NCBI GenBank assembly: GCA_900299205.1
Contig: OMIW01000142.1
Location: 1 to 54,890, forward strand
Length of the DNA: 54,890 nt
Direction: 5' to 3'
Origin: Pseudomonadota bacterium
Lineage (GTDB): Bacteria; Bdellovibrionota_C; UBA2361; OMIW01
Made by a program: the position numbers and the translations under genes. Each line of letters starts with the position of its first letter. Positions within the stretch are counted from its first letter, which is position 1. The notes under the pieces were generated by a model, which did not search any database, was not told the DNA's origin, and saw only the letters and a list, made by a program, of their open reading frames with translations. Of the stretch, positions 14,492 through 18,244 are shown piece by piece.

Positions 14492-16324
14492 ATGACGCAC
14501 CACGAGTCCTCTGACGAAGCTTCCCCAGCGCATTCCTCCGTGCATTCGCGACGCGACGGCGCCCGCGCTCTCGCGCGACTGTGCCTTTCCGAGAAGAGGC
14601 TCTTGCTCGGGGGCGGAATCGCCCTCTTTGTAGGAGTCGAATCAAATTTACTTGTTCCAGAGCTCGCTCGTCGAGCGCTCTCGCCCGTGAGCTCTCTCTC
14701 TATCTTTGCCTATCCCTATCGGATTATCCTGGCGGCTATCATTCTGTTTTTTATTCAAGGTATCGCCTATTACCTCCGAACTTACCTCCTCGGCATCCTC
14801 GCGCATCGGGTCGTCAAAAATTTGCGATTCAATCTCTTTTCATCGTTAATCAAGAATCGCATCTCATTTTTTGATACGCACAAGACGAGCGATCTCGTAT
14901 CTCGGGTCACAGCAGATACTTTGATGATCCAGGAGGCTATCGGCGTTCGGGCATCTGTCATTTTGCGCTACCTGTTGCAAATTGTGCAGGGTATCGTCCT
15001 CATGATCTGGTTATCACCGACTCTTACTTGCATCCTCCTTTCGATCATCCCTGTTCTGATATCCGTCTCAGTAGTACTCGGCAAGCGATTAAGAAAACTC
15101 TCACACACTCATCAGGCTATGCTCGCTGAGGCGAGCGGAGTATGCGAACAATCATTCTCAATGATCCGTACTGTCAAGGCGTGTCGGGCGGAGCAACTTG
15201 AGATACGAGCCTTCAACAAAGCCACTACAGCCGTGTTCGAGACAATTACTAAGCGAACCGCCGTGAGCGCATTCTTTCAATCATCCGTCACATTTTTGAT
15301 GAATACGAGTCTCGTTCTCGTCGGATTGTATGGACTCCAGCTTGCCAACTCAGGCGGAATGTCGTGGGGTAATCTGGTCGCATTCGGCATGTATGGAGCC
15401 ACCGTTGCGATGTCAGCGGCCTTTGTGGCTGGCGGCTTTTCCGACTTCATGCAATCACTTGCCGCCGTCGAGCGAGTACTCGAATTTTCTTCCTCGTTTG
15501 AGCACGAGCAATCAGGAGATAAATCTCTGTCCCCCTGCCTCACCATACCCTCAACCAATTGCGGCACGATTTCGCAAGCGACCTCTGATTATCCTGTAAC
15601 TTTTGATCGGGTGTCTTTCTCTTACCCGACGCGTCCCGAAGTGCCGGTTCTAACCGATATCTCTTTCACCATTCCTGCGGGGAAATTCGTGGCTCTTGTC
15701 GGTCCATCAGGATCAGGAAAGAGCACCATTACTCAACTCATTTTAGGTTTTTATCCACCGACTCTCGGTGAAATCATGATAGAGGGGCACCCGATATCGC
15801 AGGTGAGCTTATCTTCCTTGCGGAGGCAAGTAGCAATCGTCCCGCAAGACCCCGTACTCTTCTCAGGAAGTATTAGGGACAACCTCCTCATCGGTCTTCC
15901 TGATGCGACGGACTACCAACTCGTTGAGGTTTGCCGAGCTGTTAATATGATTGCGTTCATCGACTCACTGCCTGCCGGATTTGATACGTCAGTGGGCGAG
16001 CGGGGTTTGCAACTCAGCGGAGGTCAACGACAACGACTTGCTATTGCACGGGCGCTGCTTTCAGCTCCTCACCTCCTCATTCTGGACGAAGCAACCTCCT
16101 CACTTGATGCTCACAATGAGGGACTACTTCAGGAGACACTAAGCACGATCATAGGCCGAACCTCCCTCCTTGTGATTGCGCATCGCCTTGCCACGGTACA
16201 AAAAGCCGATGAACTCCTCGTAATGTCTAGTGGCTCAATTCTAGAAAGGGGGACACATGAATCTCTCTTGTCCCAGAATGGGTTGTACGCGGATTTTGTC
16301 CGTCAGCAAATTATCCGAGGTTAG
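14492..16324 (+). CDS. ABC exporter, fused permease/ATP-binding (MsbA/ABCB-like)
   Basis: N-terminal TM helices; GPSGSGKS, LSGGQRQR, LILDEATS, IAHRL. Confidence 0.93.
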   Translation: MTHHESSDEASPAHSSVHSRRDGARALARLCLSEKRLLLGGGIALFVGVESNLLVPELARRALSPVSSLSIFAYPYRIILAAIILFFIQGIAYYLRTYLLGILAHRVVKNLRFNLFSSLIKNRISFFDTHKTSDLVSRVTADTLMIQEAIGVRASVILRYLLQIVQGIVLMIWLSPTLTCILLSIIPVLISVSVVLGKRLRKLSHTHQAMLAEASGVCEQSFSMIRTVKACRAEQLEIRAFNKATTAVFETITKRTAVSAFFQSSVTFLMNTSLVLVGLYGLQLANSGGMSWGNLVAFGMYGATVAMSAAFVAGGFSDFMQSLAAVERVLEFSSSFEHEQSGDKSLSPCLTIPSTNCGTISQATSDYPVTFDRVSFSYPTRPEVPVLTDISFTIPAGKFVALVGPSGSGKSTITQLILGFYPPTLGEIMIEGHPISQVSLSSLRRQVAIVPQDPVLFSGSIRDNLLIGLPDATDYQLVEVCRAVNMIAFIDSLPAGFDTSVGERGLQLSGGQRQRLAIARALLSAPHLLILDEATSSLDAHNEGLLQETLSTIIGRTSLLVIAHRLATVQKADELLVMSSGSILERGTHESLLSQNGLYADFVRQQIIRG

Positions 16325-16408
16325 TGCATCGAGGTAAAAGCCTGCTCTCCCTGACTGTTTTAGCCTGCCTCTCTTGAGAGGCGCTCGTGAGCTACTGAAA
16401 ACCGCCAA

Positions 16409-16454
16409 TAAAAAAGTGGGAGGGGGCCTCCCCTCAGAGTCCCCCTCCCACTTT
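16409..16454 (-). terminator. Intrinsic terminator downstream of the RRM-bS18 gene
   Basis: 14-bp inverted repeat AAAGTGGGAGGGGG (16413-16426) / CCCCCTCCCACTTT (16441-16454) with a T-run on the minus strand. Confidence 0.7.
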
Positions 16455-16483
16455 CAAGAACGAGCCGGTAAAGTTCTGCTGGC

Positions 16484-17047
16484 TTATACCGCCGAAAACG
16501 GCAACAACCCAAGGTTCTGAGCTCGCTTGATAGCCTTCGATACCTTACGTTGATTATAAGCATTGAGGCCCGTTAGTCTTCGCGAAAGAATTCGCCCTCG
16601 CTCACTCAAAAAGCGGGAGAGGGTAGCAACATCGCGGTAATCAATCACAGCCTTAGGATCTTCGAGGAAGGGGTCAACCTTTCGCCGACGCTTGAACAGC
16701 TGCATTCGCTGAATTGGTGGAAGCGGCTCGTAACGACGCCCTTCCCCCTCACCACTCGGGGCCCCCTGCGCCGACCCTGGCGCTCCCGGTGCTCCCGCTC
16801 CCTTACCTCGATCCTCTACGACCTTCATCGGCCGTCCGTTCACCACCTTCCCATTTAACGCCTGAATCGCGGCTTTTGCGGCGTCCTCGCTCTCCATCTC
16901 GACAAAAGCAAACCCCTTCGAGCGCTTTGTTTCGCGATCTGTCGCAATGACGACACTGAGAGTAGGTGCCGCTGCGGCGAACAGCTCCCGAAGTTCATCG
17001 TTGGTGATGTCAAAATCAAGGTTACTGATAAATAATTTTTTCCGCAT
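16484..17047 (-). CDS. rpsR: RRM-domain / 30S ribosomal protein bS18 fusion
   Basis: N-terminal RNP2 LFISNL and RNP1 KGFAFVEM; Gly/Ala/Pro linker; C-terminal IDYRDVATLSRFLSERGRILSRRLTG...QRKVSKAIKRAQNLGLLPF is bS18. Confidence 0.92.
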   Translation of the reverse strand: MRKKLFISNLDFDITNDELRELFAAAAPTLSVVIATDRETKRSKGFAFVEMESEDAAKAAIQALNGKVVNGRPMKVVEDRGKGAGAPGAPGSAQGAPSGEGEGRRYEPLPPIQRMQLFKRRRKVDPFLEDPKAVIDYRDVATLSRFLSERGRILSRRLTGLNAYNQRKVSKAIKRAQNLGLLPFSAV

Positions 17048-17755
17048 AGTTATTTGCTCTGAAAATCCGTCCTAGCCCTGCAGATGCTCCCGCACCCCCC
17101 GTTTTCTATGCATCGTGCAGTTTACCCTGCAGCTCCCGCAGTTCCAAACAGGTACCACCGAACCCCTCACCGCCGGCCCTAATCCGAAGCGACAGTCGTC
17201 AGCCGGGCCTGTATTATCCCGACACAGACCCAAAAGTCAACTACCCTTCCGCTACCACATCCAAACAACTTTTGCCACACAAAGACAACCTGTGAAAAAA
17301 TCGAAGAAAATTGACGAAAACGGCCCGAAACTTTATTGCTCCCCCCTCATCTTATGCTATGGTTCGGCTATCAGGCGATAGCGATGCGGTAACATTGGAT
17401 GAGTATTCAGAAAACACTCTGGTACAAAAATATTACAATTCTTACCAACGCAAATCGCTTCGGAACGCTTGACGGGTTTAGTTTAAATCACTAAAAGTAA
17501 GTCTGTAGTCGACGATTCTTGGTTGTATGTATCGGTTAGTTGATTTGGTTAGTTGTACTTCTTCGTGCGGTAAAAGCAGAGCCCAAGAGATCGAAGAGCC
17601 CCTAAGGGTAATTTTCGTCCCTCGAAATGCTTTGCTGGTGGTCTGAGAGAGTGATGCAGCAGTAACTGCAACGATGGCGGCGGATCTGAAATTGAGAGCT
17701 CTCAACGGTGAGGCTCTCACGCTGAGAGGATCTGGGCGGTTGTCGGAGGTCACCT

Positions 17756-17793
17756 TCTCATTGCGGTATTGCAGTCTCATTGCGGTATTGCAG
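17756..17793. repeat. Perfect 19-bp tandem duplication (TCTCATTGCGGTATTGCAG x2)
   Basis: Read directly from the sequence. Confidence 0.9.
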
Positions 17794-17917
17794 TGATTGG
17801 TCGAGGCACTCCTCTTGGAAGCCTTTGGATGTTGTTCTCACCCAACCCGAACCCGAGTGATTCGCACGTGATGAAACGCTGCGAAACTCTGGGCACACAA
17901 GCACAGGGAAGCAGCAT

Positions 17918-18244
17918 ATGAGCAATTCATCAGCCGTTGGAAAGTTCACCTCAGAGCGGGATGACGACGTTGAGACCCAGTCCCCCGTCAAATCAGAGCG
18001 CAATCTCCTCGCAGCCGTCTTGTCGAGAGCCATTTGCGACGCTTTTGGGACTGCCCAATGTGAGCGTCACATCGTCAGAAGCGCCCGTCAGTGGTTGTTT
18101 GGAACCCTCATGCCGAAACAGCCCTTCAGCTTCTCCTGGGTGGCGAGCCACCTTGATCTTGACCCTCTGGCGCTCCAGGATTTCCTCCGAAACTATGAAG
18201 GGGATCCGAACGGTCTACAGGAGCGTTTAGCACTGCTGAGGTAA
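17918..18244 (+). CDS. Small conserved-looking hypothetical protein
   Basis: ERNLLAAVLSRAICD...ARQWLF...PFSFSWVASHLDLDP resembles a small helical family I recall from phage and deltaproteobacterial-type genomes. Confidence 0.7.
   Translation: MSNSSAVGKFTSERDDDVETQSPVKSERNLLAAVLSRAICDAFGTAQCERHIVRSARQWLFGTLMPKQPFSFSWVASHLDLDPLALQDFLRNYEGDPNGLQERLALLR

What the first reader, a model, noticed from the sequence alone, without database searches (positions are those of the whole stretch)
16484..17047. RNA-recognition-motif domain fused to ribosomal protein bS18
Seen: one uninterrupted 187-aa ORF with a complete RRM, a flexible GAGAPGAPGSAQGAPSG linker and a complete bS18. The bS18 lacks the zinc-binding cysteines (KVDPF, TGLNAYNQR), stands outside the usual rpsF-ssb-rpsR-rplI operon and has its own terminator. 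Established: bS18 lies at the 30S platform near the mRNA exit and anti-SD region, and bacterial RRM proteins are usually free single domains. Inference: a ribosome-tethered RNA-binding domain that could recruit or unfold particular mRNAs, or an autoregulatory device.
Basis: partly seen in the sequence, partly recalled or inferred. Interest (0 to 1): 0.8.

Follow-up and report, generated by a model that had tools for sequence, protein, structure and literature searches.

The report
RRM domain fused to ribosomal bS18
In a whole lineage of uncultured freshwater bacteria, the only gene for ribosomal protein bS18 carries an extra RNA-binding (RRM) domain on a flexible tether, which would place it where the messenger RNA leaves the small ribosomal subunit.

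Summary
Window 16484-17047 (-) is one uninterrupted 187-aa ORF: a canonical RRM (aa 1-80), a disordered Gly/Ser/Pro-rich linker (81-114) and a complete bS18 (115-187).

It is not an assembly artefact. Contigs of two other DNA runs span the junction without gaps.

It is the only S18 gene in this genome, and the usual slot between rpsF and rplI is empty.

The fusion marks a whole lineage. Of 124 species genomes of the window's phylum-rank group, 116 hold exactly one S18. 113 of these are intact RRM-bS18 fusions, one has lost the RRM, one is broken on a low-coverage contig and one is cut by a contig end.

No RRM-S18 was seen in 151 sampled genomes of Bdellovibrionota proper. Some of those carry a bS6-bS18 fusion instead.

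Both domains are under purifying selection, and the RNA-binding aromatic residues are kept in 42 of 43 sequences.

Best reading: this is the working bS18, holding a single-strand RNA binder at the mRNA exit and Shine-Dalgarno chamber. That role is inferred, not shown.

A highly conserved 108-aa protein of unknown family is encoded next door in 71 of 81 loci.

Public records call the fusion plain "S18". My four literature searches for it found no paper describing it.

The parts
16484..17047 (-). Whole RRM-linker-bS18 gene (187 codons plus the stop at 16484-16486)
   Evidence: ORF list and translation. Two Pfam domains in one frame. It is the only S18 above cut-off in the genome.
16808..17047 (-). 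RRM domain, aa 1-80 (Pfam match aa 5-74 = 16826-17035). RNP2 is K4/F6/N9; RNP1 is G45/F46/F48/E50.
   Evidence: Pfam RRM_1 E 1.7e-23. pLDDT above 90 with b-a-b-b-a-b order. Foldseek target TM about 0.9 to solved RRMs. F6, F46 and F48 are each kept in 42 of 43 sequences.
16706..16807 (-). Flexible linker, aa 81-114: a Gly/Ala/Pro/Ser-rich stretch, then the semi-conserved YEPLPPIQRMQL segment
   Evidence: pLDDT 37-59, below 50 for aa 83-103. Across 43 sequences the length is 20-55 aa (median 28), mean pairwise identity is 0.25, and G, S, R and P are the commonest residues.
16487..16705 (-). Complete bS18, aa 115-187, including the basic N-terminal tail (FKRRRK) and the S18 domain (Pfam match = 16502-16651)
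   Evidence: Pfam and TIGR00165 above their cut-offs. End-to-end alignment to solved bS18 chains. Mean pairwise identity 0.67.
16408..16435 (-). Terminator-like hairpin (16435-16418) with a T-run, about 50 nt after the stop codon
   Evidence: Consensus scan. The number of sites is not above shuffles, so only the position supports it. The next gene downstream is a convergent ABC transporter at 14492-16324 (+).
17213..17240 (-). Promoter-like site (TTGACT, 16 nt, GATAAT; 10 of 12 matches) about 165 nt upstream of the start codon
   Evidence: Consensus scan only. RNA-library contigs of a relative reach at least 27 nt upstream of the ATG, then continue for 44 letters that differ from the window.
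17918..18244 (+). Conserved 108-aa neighbour gene (P0271) of unknown family, transcribed divergently from the fusion gene
   Evidence: A homologue lies directly upstream of the fusion in 71 of 81 loci: 54 divergent, 17 on the same strand. Mean column identity is 65% over 33 sequences. No Pfam, NCBIfam or PHROG match. Whether it belongs to the same functional unit is open.
17048..17917 (.). 870-bp intergenic region without a credible ORF, between the fusion gene and the small gene
   Evidence: ORF list. RNA-library contigs of a relative cover 17372-18244 in one piece, with 6 gaps (five listed, all in the intergenic part). At DNA level the region is conserved only within the genus, at 88%. No Rfam match.

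Best explanation
The gene encodes the one and only bS18 of this organism, so the protein is built into the platform of every 30S subunit. Its C-terminal 73 residues are an ordinary bS18, including the basic N-terminal tail. In other bacteria that tail lies against the Shine-Dalgarno/anti-Shine-Dalgarno duplex. Ahead of the tail, a disordered linker of about 35 residues carries a canonical RRM with intact RNA-binding aromatic residues. The RRM is therefore held within a few nanometres of the mRNA exit channel and the 3' end of 16S rRNA. I propose it binds single-stranded RNA there. The most likely target is the 5' untranslated region just upstream of the Shine-Dalgarno sequence. The RRM would act as a built-in capture or standby arm that works alongside bS1 and SD pairing, both of which are retained. 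Shown: the architecture, sole-copy status, lineage-wide conservation, purifying selection on both domains, and one origin of the fusion. Inferred: incorporation into the 30S, the position of the RRM, RNA binding and the identity of the target.
For: (1) Sole bS18. There is one PF01084 match above cut-off in the window's genome. The rpsF-rplI slot holds no S18 in 6 of 6 genomes examined. 116 of 124 genomes of the group have an S18, and each has exactly one.
(2) Conservation. 113 of those 116 are intact fusions: 109 are single full-length matches without stops, and G032, G076, G065 and G066 were checked by eye. The wider protein search found 600 clusters at E <= 1e-10, and all 120 listed carry both Pfam domains.
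(3) Selection. Against the same-genus genome G001, 54 codons differ and all 54 changes are synonymous. Against G002 there are 107 synonymous and 20 non-synonymous differences (RRM 45:7, linker 13:9, S18 49:4). Mean pairwise identity is 0.52 for the RRM, 0.67 for S18 and 0.25 for the linker.
(4) RNA-binding features. F6 (RNP2) and F46/F48 (RNP1) are each kept in 42 of 43 sequences, and the fold is a canonical RRM.
(5) Geometry, from papers read as passages. [quoted passage not shown] The preprint 10.64898/2026.07.03.736309 says the E. coli bS18 N-terminus becomes ordered on contact with mRNA.
(6) One origin. The 43 fusion RRMs form one side of a branch against 50 free RRMs, with SH-aLRT 92.
(7) RNA-library contigs of a relative about 91% identical span the RRM, the linker and the start of S18 (16648-17074) without gaps.
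Against: Nothing here shows RNA binding, ribosome incorporation or a target. No extra sequence signal was found upstream of the SD in about 1650 putative starts, apart from slight T enrichment at -18 to -16. SD use looks ordinary to moderate: an SD core precedes 34% of first ATGs against 14% of decoys. bS1 with six S1 domains and bS21 are both present, so no obvious gap exists for the RRM to fill. One genome (G049) has lost the RRM and kept S18, so the RRM is dispensable at least there. All members are metagenome-assembled genomes. The RNA-library contigs come from a relative and may contain DNA. The fusion clade's branch support (92) is below the tool's 95 mark, on only 82 columns.
Confidence: 0.55

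Rival explanations
1. The RRM binds ribosomal RNA rather than mRNA. One version has it hold the single-stranded, pyrimidine-rich 3' tail of 16S rRNA (the anti-SD) when no mRNA is engaged. That would modulate SD recognition in a way loosely analogous to the bS21/bS18/bS6 pocket of Bacteroidia. Another version has it help the platform fold during 30S assembly.
For: The tether point is next to the 16S 3' end (passages in PMC10123108 and PMC7797042). The anti-SD CACCUCCUU is present and invariant in 5 of 5 relatives' 16S genes, so it would be a constant ligand, which fits the strong conservation of the RRM. RRMs that bind rRNA in a bacterial-type 30S exist: cS22 binds h6 and h10. SD usage is only moderate.
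Against: A clear SD peak at -14 to -8 shows that the anti-SD is used. A long, variable and disordered linker of 20-55 aa suits a mobile arm better than a fixed structural contact. No covariation test is possible because the tail does not vary.
Confidence: 0.2
2. The RRM is mainly a protein-docking module that recruits a partner to the platform. The partner could be the conserved 108-aa protein encoded next door, an RNA helicase or RNase, or RNA polymerase. Direct RNA binding would be secondary.
For: The small gene's linkage to the fusion is conserved in 71 of 81 loci and survives a change of orientation between orders. The small protein is very strongly conserved. It was not found in 0 of 151 sampled Bdellovibrionota proper, which also lack the RRM fusion. 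An invariant fusion-specific residue, D79, replaces the Ala found in 98% of free RRMs.
Against: The RNP1 and RNP2 aromatic residues that protein-binding RRM variants often lose are kept. G049 lost the RRM but keeps the small gene next to S18, so the linkage may be with S18 or purely regulatory. Paralogues of the small protein lie elsewhere in these genomes.
Confidence: 0.12
3. The RRM is an autoregulatory device. Free, unassembled fusion protein binds its own mRNA leader through the RRM and represses translation, replacing the operon-level control lost when rpsR left the rpsF operon.
For: The gene stands alone and is apparently monocistronic. Its leader lacks an SD core in the window and in 32 of 42 orthologues. 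Autogenous control of ribosomal proteins is common (established knowledge).
Against: The 60 nt upstream of 42 diverse orthologues show no conserved sequence. The intergenic DNA is conserved only within the genus. There is no Rfam leader. An 80-aa domain kept for this purpose alone across a whole phylum-rank group is not parsimonious.
Confidence: 0.08
4. The fusion is an artefact (chimeric assembly or mis-called frame) or a decaying gene.
For: All genomes are metagenome bins. One relative (G087) shows the two halves in different frames.
Against: The same architecture occurs in 113 genomes and 600 protein clusters from many sources. Independent contigs span the junction. All 54 codon differences to G001 are synonymous. 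The G087 contig has about 2.9x coverage according to its record title.
Confidence: 0.01

Closest known systems
Canonical bacterial bS18 (rpsR), as in the E. coli and Thermus 30S
   Same: A complete S18 domain and basic N-terminal tail. It passes the Pfam and TIGR00165 cut-offs and aligns end to end with solved chains. It is the single copy in the genome.
   Different: It carries about 114 extra N-terminal residues: a folded RRM plus a linker. It lies outside the rpsF-rpsR-rplI cluster, which here reads bS6-bL9.
Chloroplast bS18c N-terminal extension (preprint 10.64898/2026.07.03.736309, passages read)
   Same: [quoted passage not shown] The authors propose it adds contacts with mRNA.
   Different: It consists of heptad repeats of basic and aromatic residues (about 19-55 aa), not a folded RNA-binding domain, and it occurs in plastids.
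cS22 / PSRP2 of chloroplast ribosomes (PMC5737520 and the same preprint, passages; sequence match to 5x8p_v and 5mmj_v)
   Same: RRM domains as an integral part of a bacterial-type small subunit. It is among the best PDB matches to the RRM part.
   Different: It is a separate protein with two RRMs that sits at the foot of the subunit on h6 and h10, not at the mRNA exit. It is not fused to a core ribosomal protein.
bS1
   Same: It works alike in principle: single-strand RNA-binding domains on flexible connections at the mRNA exit side, next to bS18 (PMC10123108, passages).
   Different: It uses OB folds, is a separate protein and is anchored through uS2. It is still present here with six S1 domains, so the RRM adds to it rather than replacing it.
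bS6-bS18 fusion in part of Bdellovibrionota proper (found here)
   Same: An N-terminal alpha/beta domain joined by a low-complexity linker to bS18, as the only S18 of the genome.
   Different: The partner is bS6, the known heterodimer partner of bS18. That fusion joins two ribosomal neighbours and adds no new activity.
Free single-RRM proteins of bacteria (cyanobacterial Rbp type; NCBIfam NF058537 'Rbp_regulator')
   Same: The same domain with the same RNP motifs. A free paralogue exists in this genome at C38:5792-6001.
   Different: The fusion scores 84.1 bits against a cut-off of 100 for NF058537. The fusion RRMs form their own branch and carry D79 where free RRMs have Ala.
Anti-SD sequestration by bS21/bS18/bS6 in Bacteroidia (PMC7797042, passages)
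   Same: A lineage-specific change at the bS18 site that bears on how the 16S 3' tail and mRNA meet.
   Different: There it is achieved through point residues of normal-sized proteins and goes with loss of SD use. Here SD signals are present.

Membership tests
Ribosomal protein bS18 (Pfam PF01084 / NCBIfam TIGR00165) | S18 domain scoring above the curated cut-offs | tested here: met
   PF01084 80.3 bits against 21. TIGR00165 76.2 bits against 38.75.
Ribosomal protein bS18 (Pfam PF01084 / NCBIfam TIGR00165) | Full-length correspondence to bS18 as seen in solved ribosomes, basic N-terminal tail included | tested here: met
   aa 113-186 align to residues 4-77 of 81 (5myj_AR), and aa 118-185 to residues 4-71 of 75.
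Ribosomal protein bS18 (Pfam PF01084 / NCBIfam TIGR00165) | It is the organism's bS18 (no other copy) | tested here: met
   One match above cut-off in a genome that is 89.75% complete. One match per genome in 116 of 116 related genomes that hold S18.
Ribosomal protein bS18 (Pfam PF01084 / NCBIfam TIGR00165) | Physically part of the 30S subunit, paired with bS6 | not testable with these tools
   bS6 is encoded. Incorporation needs ribosome proteomics or cryo-EM.
Ribosomal protein bS18 (Pfam PF01084 / NCBIfam TIGR00165) | Usual gene context rpsF-(ssb)-rpsR-rplI (typical, not defining) | tested here: not met
   bL25-pth-bS6-bL9 without S18 in 6 of 6 genomes. The fusion gene lies elsewhere, next to the small gene.
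RRM (Pfam PF00076 RRM_1) | Domain score above cut-off and the b-a-b-b-a-b fold | tested here: met
   82.7 bits against 20.7. The AF2 model has the element order E-H-E-E-H-E. Foldseek gives target TM about 0.9 to solved RRMs.
RRM (Pfam PF00076 RRM_1) | RNP2 and RNP1 motifs with their aromatic residues | tested here: met
   F6, F46 and F48 are each kept in 42 of 43 sequences; K4, G45 and S43 are invariant.
RRM (Pfam PF00076 RRM_1) | Binds single-stranded RNA | not testable with these tools
   Needs binding assays or CLIP.
Free bacterial Rbp regulators (NCBIfam NF058537) | Score above the curated cut-off | tested here: not met
   84.1 bits against 100. The protein is also fused rather than free.
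Zinc-binding ('C+') form of S18 | Cysteine ligands in the S18 part | tested here: not met
   0 Cys in the S18 part in 41 of 43 fusions and 1 Cys in the other 2. The definition of the C+ form is recalled, not taken from a call.
Plastid-specific RRM ribosomal protein cS22 | Separate protein with two RRMs bound at the 30S foot | tested here: not met
   There is one RRM, fused to bS18. The likeness to 5x8p_v and 5mmj_v is at the level of the RRM domain only.

The most novel reading that the evidence does not exclude
This lineage builds a constitutively specialised ribosome. The RRM on bS18, possibly with the lineage-specific and very conserved 108-aa protein encoded beside it, would form a new mRNA-selection module at the 30S platform. 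The module would read a single-stranded feature of 5' leaders, or gate access to the anti-SD. It would be a third bacterial solution for start-site recruitment beside SD pairing and bS1, with the RRM-less genome G049 as a natural knock-out.
Probability: 0.15. Interest if true: 0.85.

Novelty: new variant of a known kind. Interest (0 to 1): 0.7.

Why it matters
Core ribosomal proteins of bacteria rarely acquire whole folded domains with an activity of their own. Here a canonical eukaryote-style RNA-binding domain is fixed on the only bS18 of an entire deep lineage, at the point where mRNA leaders, the anti-SD and bS1 meet.

If the RRM binds leaders, it is a built-in initiation factor. It would give a direct handle on how mRNAs are recruited when SD pairing is only moderate. 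If it binds the 16S tail, it would be a second, independent way of tuning SD recognition besides the one described in Bacteroidia.

Either way it gives the poorly understood bacterial RRM proteins a clear physical address. The hypothesis is testable with recombinant protein and E. coli complementation, without needing a culture of the organism.

The parallel bS6-bS18 fusion in a neighbouring lineage, and the bS18c extensions of plastids, suggest the N-terminus of bS18 is a recurrent site of ribosome innovation.

Tried and rejected
1. 'The lineage has abandoned SD pairing, as Bacteroidia have' is rejected. SD cores peak at -14 to -8, precede 34% of first ATGs against 14% of internal decoys, and the anti-SD is canonical in 5 of 5 relatives' 16S genes.

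2. A leader motif for the RRM: position-wise base composition from -60 to +20 showed only the SD purine peak and slight T enrichment at -18 to -16. Gene starts were crude (first ATG of long ORFs), so a weak motif could be missed.

3. A conserved autoregulatory leader or non-coding RNA: none in Rfam, none in the 60 nt upstream of 42 orthologues, and the intergenic DNA is alike only within the genus.

4. Complex prediction of the fusion with the small neighbour protein gave 'no answer' (score 0.00). It counts neither for nor against binding.

5. The search of 1.84 billion representatives was swamped by multi-RRM proteins. Only four of the best 150 are fusions (P0121, P0128, P0143, P0153). It therefore does not settle whether independent RRM-S18 fusions exist in other phyla. 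The Atlas showed one cluster with both domains.

6. The 'phylum' search returned the same 124 genomes as 'class' and added nothing but the rank.

7. Fold of the small protein: no PDB match by Foldseek. There are only weak matches to uncharacterised phage proteins (E about 1e-3, TM about 0.5). The VIA-align wide job had not finished after ten collecting calls.

8. Parts of the stretch without RNA-contig cover (17104-17371 and 16300-16634) say nothing.

9. Hfq was not found in the window's genome, which is 89.75% complete. I draw no conclusion from this.

10. The eight genomes without any S18 (G030, G040, G071, G077, G078, G094, G114, G115; 55-90% complete) are read as assembly gaps. In G040, G094, G114 and G115 the orthologue of the neighbour gene is missing too. 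In G030 that orthologue is present but no fusion lies beside it. Real loss cannot be excluded.

Supplements of papers were not consulted.
Full report
WHAT IS THERE. Window 16484-17047 (minus strand) is a single 187-codon ORF with an ATG start. Pfam finds two domains in the same frame. RRM_1 covers aa 5-74 (E 1.7e-23) and Ribosomal_S18 covers aa 133-182 (E 1.1e-22). Both score four times their curated cut-offs. NCBIfam's S18 equivalog model TIGR00165 matches aa 118-184 at 76.2 bits against a cut-off of 38.75.

Against the sequences of solved structures, the C-terminal part aligns end to end with ordinary bS18 chains. Residues 113-186 align to residues 4-77 of an 81-aa chain, and residues 118-185 to residues 4-71 of the 75-aa chain present in 368 entries. 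None of the 60 chains listed (of 256 matched) covers both parts. A whole bS18, with its basic N-terminal tail (FKRRRK), therefore begins near residue 115, and everything before that is extra.

AlphaFold2 on a 43-sequence alignment gives two confident domains (pLDDT above 90 for aa 1-80 and about 90 for aa 121-187). They are joined by a segment with pLDDT 37-59, below 50 for aa 83-103. The first domain superposes on solved RRMs at target TM about 0.9.

A terminator-like hairpin with a T-run follows the stop codon by about 50 nt. The scan finds no more such sites in the region than in shuffles. The next gene downstream is a convergent ABC transporter.

IS IT REAL. Contigs of two other DNA runs cover the junction. 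One spans 16542-17197 with no difference, and another spans 16300-16915 with seven substitutions and no gap. In two metatranscriptome libraries, contigs of a relative about 91% identical cover 16648-17074 and 16832-17074 without gaps. That stretch includes the RRM, the linker and the start of S18. These are contigs, they come from a relative, and RNA libraries can hold DNA.

The strongest argument is comparative and is given next.

ONLY COPY, AND LINEAGE-WIDE. The window's genome is a bin of 2.45 Mb in 206 contigs, 89.75% complete. It has one S18 match above cut-off, which is this gene. The only other hit is a 14-bit fragment with an internal stop. On contig C201 the genes run bL25-pth-bS6-bL9. 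The usual place of rpsR is empty. The same order without S18 is found in five further genomes from other families and orders.

The genome collection places the window in a phylum-rank group that holds a single class of 124 species genomes. A family search finds S18 in 116 of the 124, and exactly once in each. Of these 116:

- 109 gave one full-length match to the fusion without stops.
- G032 (a longer linker), G076, G065 and G066 (long Asn/Gln-rich linkers) are intact on inspection. This brings the intact fusions to 113.
- G087 has the two halves in different frames, on a contig whose title gives about 2.9x coverage.
- G046's S18 is cut by a contig end.
- G049 has a 107-aa S18 with no RRM, and only 178 bp lie between it and the upstream gene.

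Because other members of G049's family carry the fusion, and because the fusion RRMs form one branch, G049 is best read as a secondary loss.

The eight genomes without any S18 are 55-90% complete.

In the species-level contig collection, 50 of the 80 loci kept match both domains. Thirty of those are titled Bdellovibrionota or Bdellovibrionales. The rest are titled Deltaproteobacteria, Proteobacteria/Pseudomonadota, Oligoflexia or simply 'Bacterium', and all are metagenome bins.

In the 5.8-billion-protein collection, 600 clusters match at E <= 1e-10. All 120 listed carry both Pfam domains. Where named, they are called 'ribosomal protein S18', and once 'cold-inducible RNA-binding protein'.

In 151 sampled genomes of the phylum that holds a Bdellovibrio bin, 146 have one S18 each. 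Most sit in open frames of 80-150 aa, and 24 sit in frames of 200 aa or more. I fetched ten of those. Nine are bS6-bS18 fusions, and one has an Arg/Gly/Asp-rich extension. None has an RRM (Pfam confirmation for three fusions and the exception).

The ESM Atlas shows one large cluster with both domains, with Bdellovibrionota as its commonest label. I could not survey all phyla, so an independent origin elsewhere is not excluded.

SELECTION AND ORIGIN. Against the same-genus genome G001 the gene differs at 54 codons, all synonymously (13 in the RRM, 16 in the linker, 25 in S18). Against G002 the count is 107 synonymous to 20 non-synonymous (RRM 45:7, linker 13:9, S18 49:4).

Across 43 sequences chosen to be less than 85% identical, mean pairwise identity is 0.52 for the RRM, 0.67 for S18 and 0.25 for the linker. 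The linker varies from 20 to 55 residues and is rich in G, S, R and P. The aromatic residues that stack on RNA bases in RRMs are each kept in 42 of 43 sequences: F6 in RNP2, and F46 and F48 in RNP1.

In a maximum-likelihood tree of 93 RRM domains, the 43 fusion RRMs form one side of a branch. The other side holds 20 free RRMs of the same group and 30 from other phyla. Support is SH-aLRT 92, from 82 columns and a quick search. Compared with free RRMs, the fusion has an invariant Asp at position 79 where 98% of free RRMs have Ala, and Phe where they mostly have Tyr at positions 6 and 12.

HOW IT PROBABLY WORKS. Papers that I read as passages place bS18 at the site in question. [quoted passage not shown] In Bacteroidia, bS21, bS18 and bS6 hold the anti-SD (PMC7797042). 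The E. coli bS18 N-terminus is said to become ordered on contact with mRNA, and plastid bS18c has grown a repeat extension there (preprint 10.64898/2026.07.03.736309).

The fusion keeps the basic tail and hangs the RRM on a disordered linker just before it. The cell has no other bS18, so every 30S should carry an RRM within reach of the emerging 5' leader and of the 16S tail.

I therefore favour a built-in capture or standby arm for single-stranded leader RNA (confidence 0.55). The main rival is binding to the 16S 3' tail or another rRNA element (0.2). Protein docking (0.12) and autoregulation (0.08) follow.

The organism has not given up the standard machinery:

- SD cores peak at -14 to -8 and precede 34% of first ATGs, against 14% of decoys.
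- The anti-SD is canonical in 5 of 5 relatives.
- bS1 with six S1 domains and bS21 are both encoded.

The RRM therefore adds to the usual system rather than replacing part of it. I found no leader motif that could be its target and no conserved leader of its own gene.

THE NEIGHBOUR. A 108-aa ORF at 17918-18244 (+) faces away from the fusion gene across 870 bp. A homologue lies directly upstream of the fusion in 71 of 81 loci. It is divergent in 54 loci, all of the window's order, and on the same strand in 17 loci of the other orders. It is still there in the RRM-less G049.

It is more conserved than the fusion itself, with mean column identity of 65% over 33 sequences. It has no Pfam, NCBIfam or PHROG match. 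All 302 related clusters are 'hypothetical'. It was not found in 151 sampled Bdellovibrionota proper. It has more distant paralogues in the same genomes.

Its model is a five-helix bundle behind a disordered N-terminus. The model has no PDB match by Foldseek and only weak likeness to uncharacterised phage proteins. The complex prediction with the fusion gave no answer.

RNA-library contigs of a relative cover 17372-18244 in one piece. That is the small ORF plus about 540 nt of the intergenic region, with a higher contig depth than the fusion's contig. Whether this gene is a partner, a regulator or merely a neighbour is open.

KNOWN OR NEW. The sequences are in public databases under the plain name S18. 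Three full-text searches for an RRM-S18 fusion found no paper on it, and a fourth search on bS18 at the mRNA exit turned up none either. One search for a bS6-bS18 fusion also found none. The library does not hold most subscription journals, and I did not see any supplements.

I class this as a new variant of a known kind: a bS18 with a new, folded, presumably active N-terminal domain. The closest parallels are the plastid bS18c extension, the RRM protein cS22 and, functionally, bS1.

VERDICT. Interest is 0.7.

Noticed in passing
L115-L119, L121-L124 (genomes G136, G215, G255, G201, G161, G265, G222, G208, G277): In part of Bdellovibrionota proper the only S18 is fused to bS6 in one frame (bS6, an acidic linker, then bS18). 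This was seen in nine of ten long S18 frames fetched, and 24 of 146 S18 genes in the sample sit in frames of 200 aa or more. Pfam confirms both domains in three of them.
   Followed up: partly
window 17918-18244 (+): A 108-aa protein of unknown family is very conserved (KPERNLLAAVLARAICDAFG... core) and is encoded directly upstream of the fusion gene in 71 of 81 loci. Its orientation flips between orders. It is specific to this lineage as far as searched, has paralogues elsewhere in the genomes, and shows weak fold likeness to uncharacterised phage proteins.
   Followed up: partly
window 17372-17917: The ORF-free intergenic stretch is covered, together with the small ORF, by single contigs about 930 nt long in two metatranscriptome libraries. 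The contigs come from a relative and have indels only in the non-coding part. This could be a long leader of the small gene or a non-coding RNA. There is no Rfam match, and the DNA is conserved only within the genus.
   Followed up: partly
L109 2424-2747 (genome G049): This is the one genome of the group whose S18 lacks the RRM. It is a 107-aa protein that keeps the linker-proximal motif and the small upstream gene, so it serves as a natural RRM deletion for comparison.
   Followed up: partly
G000 contig C201 (locus L097 15-2558): The ribosomal gene cluster reads bL25-pth-bS6-bL9, with rpsR missing from its usual place. The same holds in five other genomes of the group.
   Followed up: yes
window 17903-17967: A 65-nt piece around the start of the small ORF occurs in further RNA-library contigs with different flanks and higher depth (records 3 and 6). 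It probably comes from other relatives.
   Followed up: no
G000 whole genome: No Hfq domain (PF17209) was found in the window's genome, which is 89.75% complete. One free RRM protein is encoded at C38:5792-6001.
   Followed up: no
genome G040 (single contig, 2.3 Mb, 82% complete): Neither an S18 nor the orthologue of the small neighbour gene was found on the single contig, although a 16S gene is present. This is probably a missing region, but it was not resolved.
   Followed up: partly
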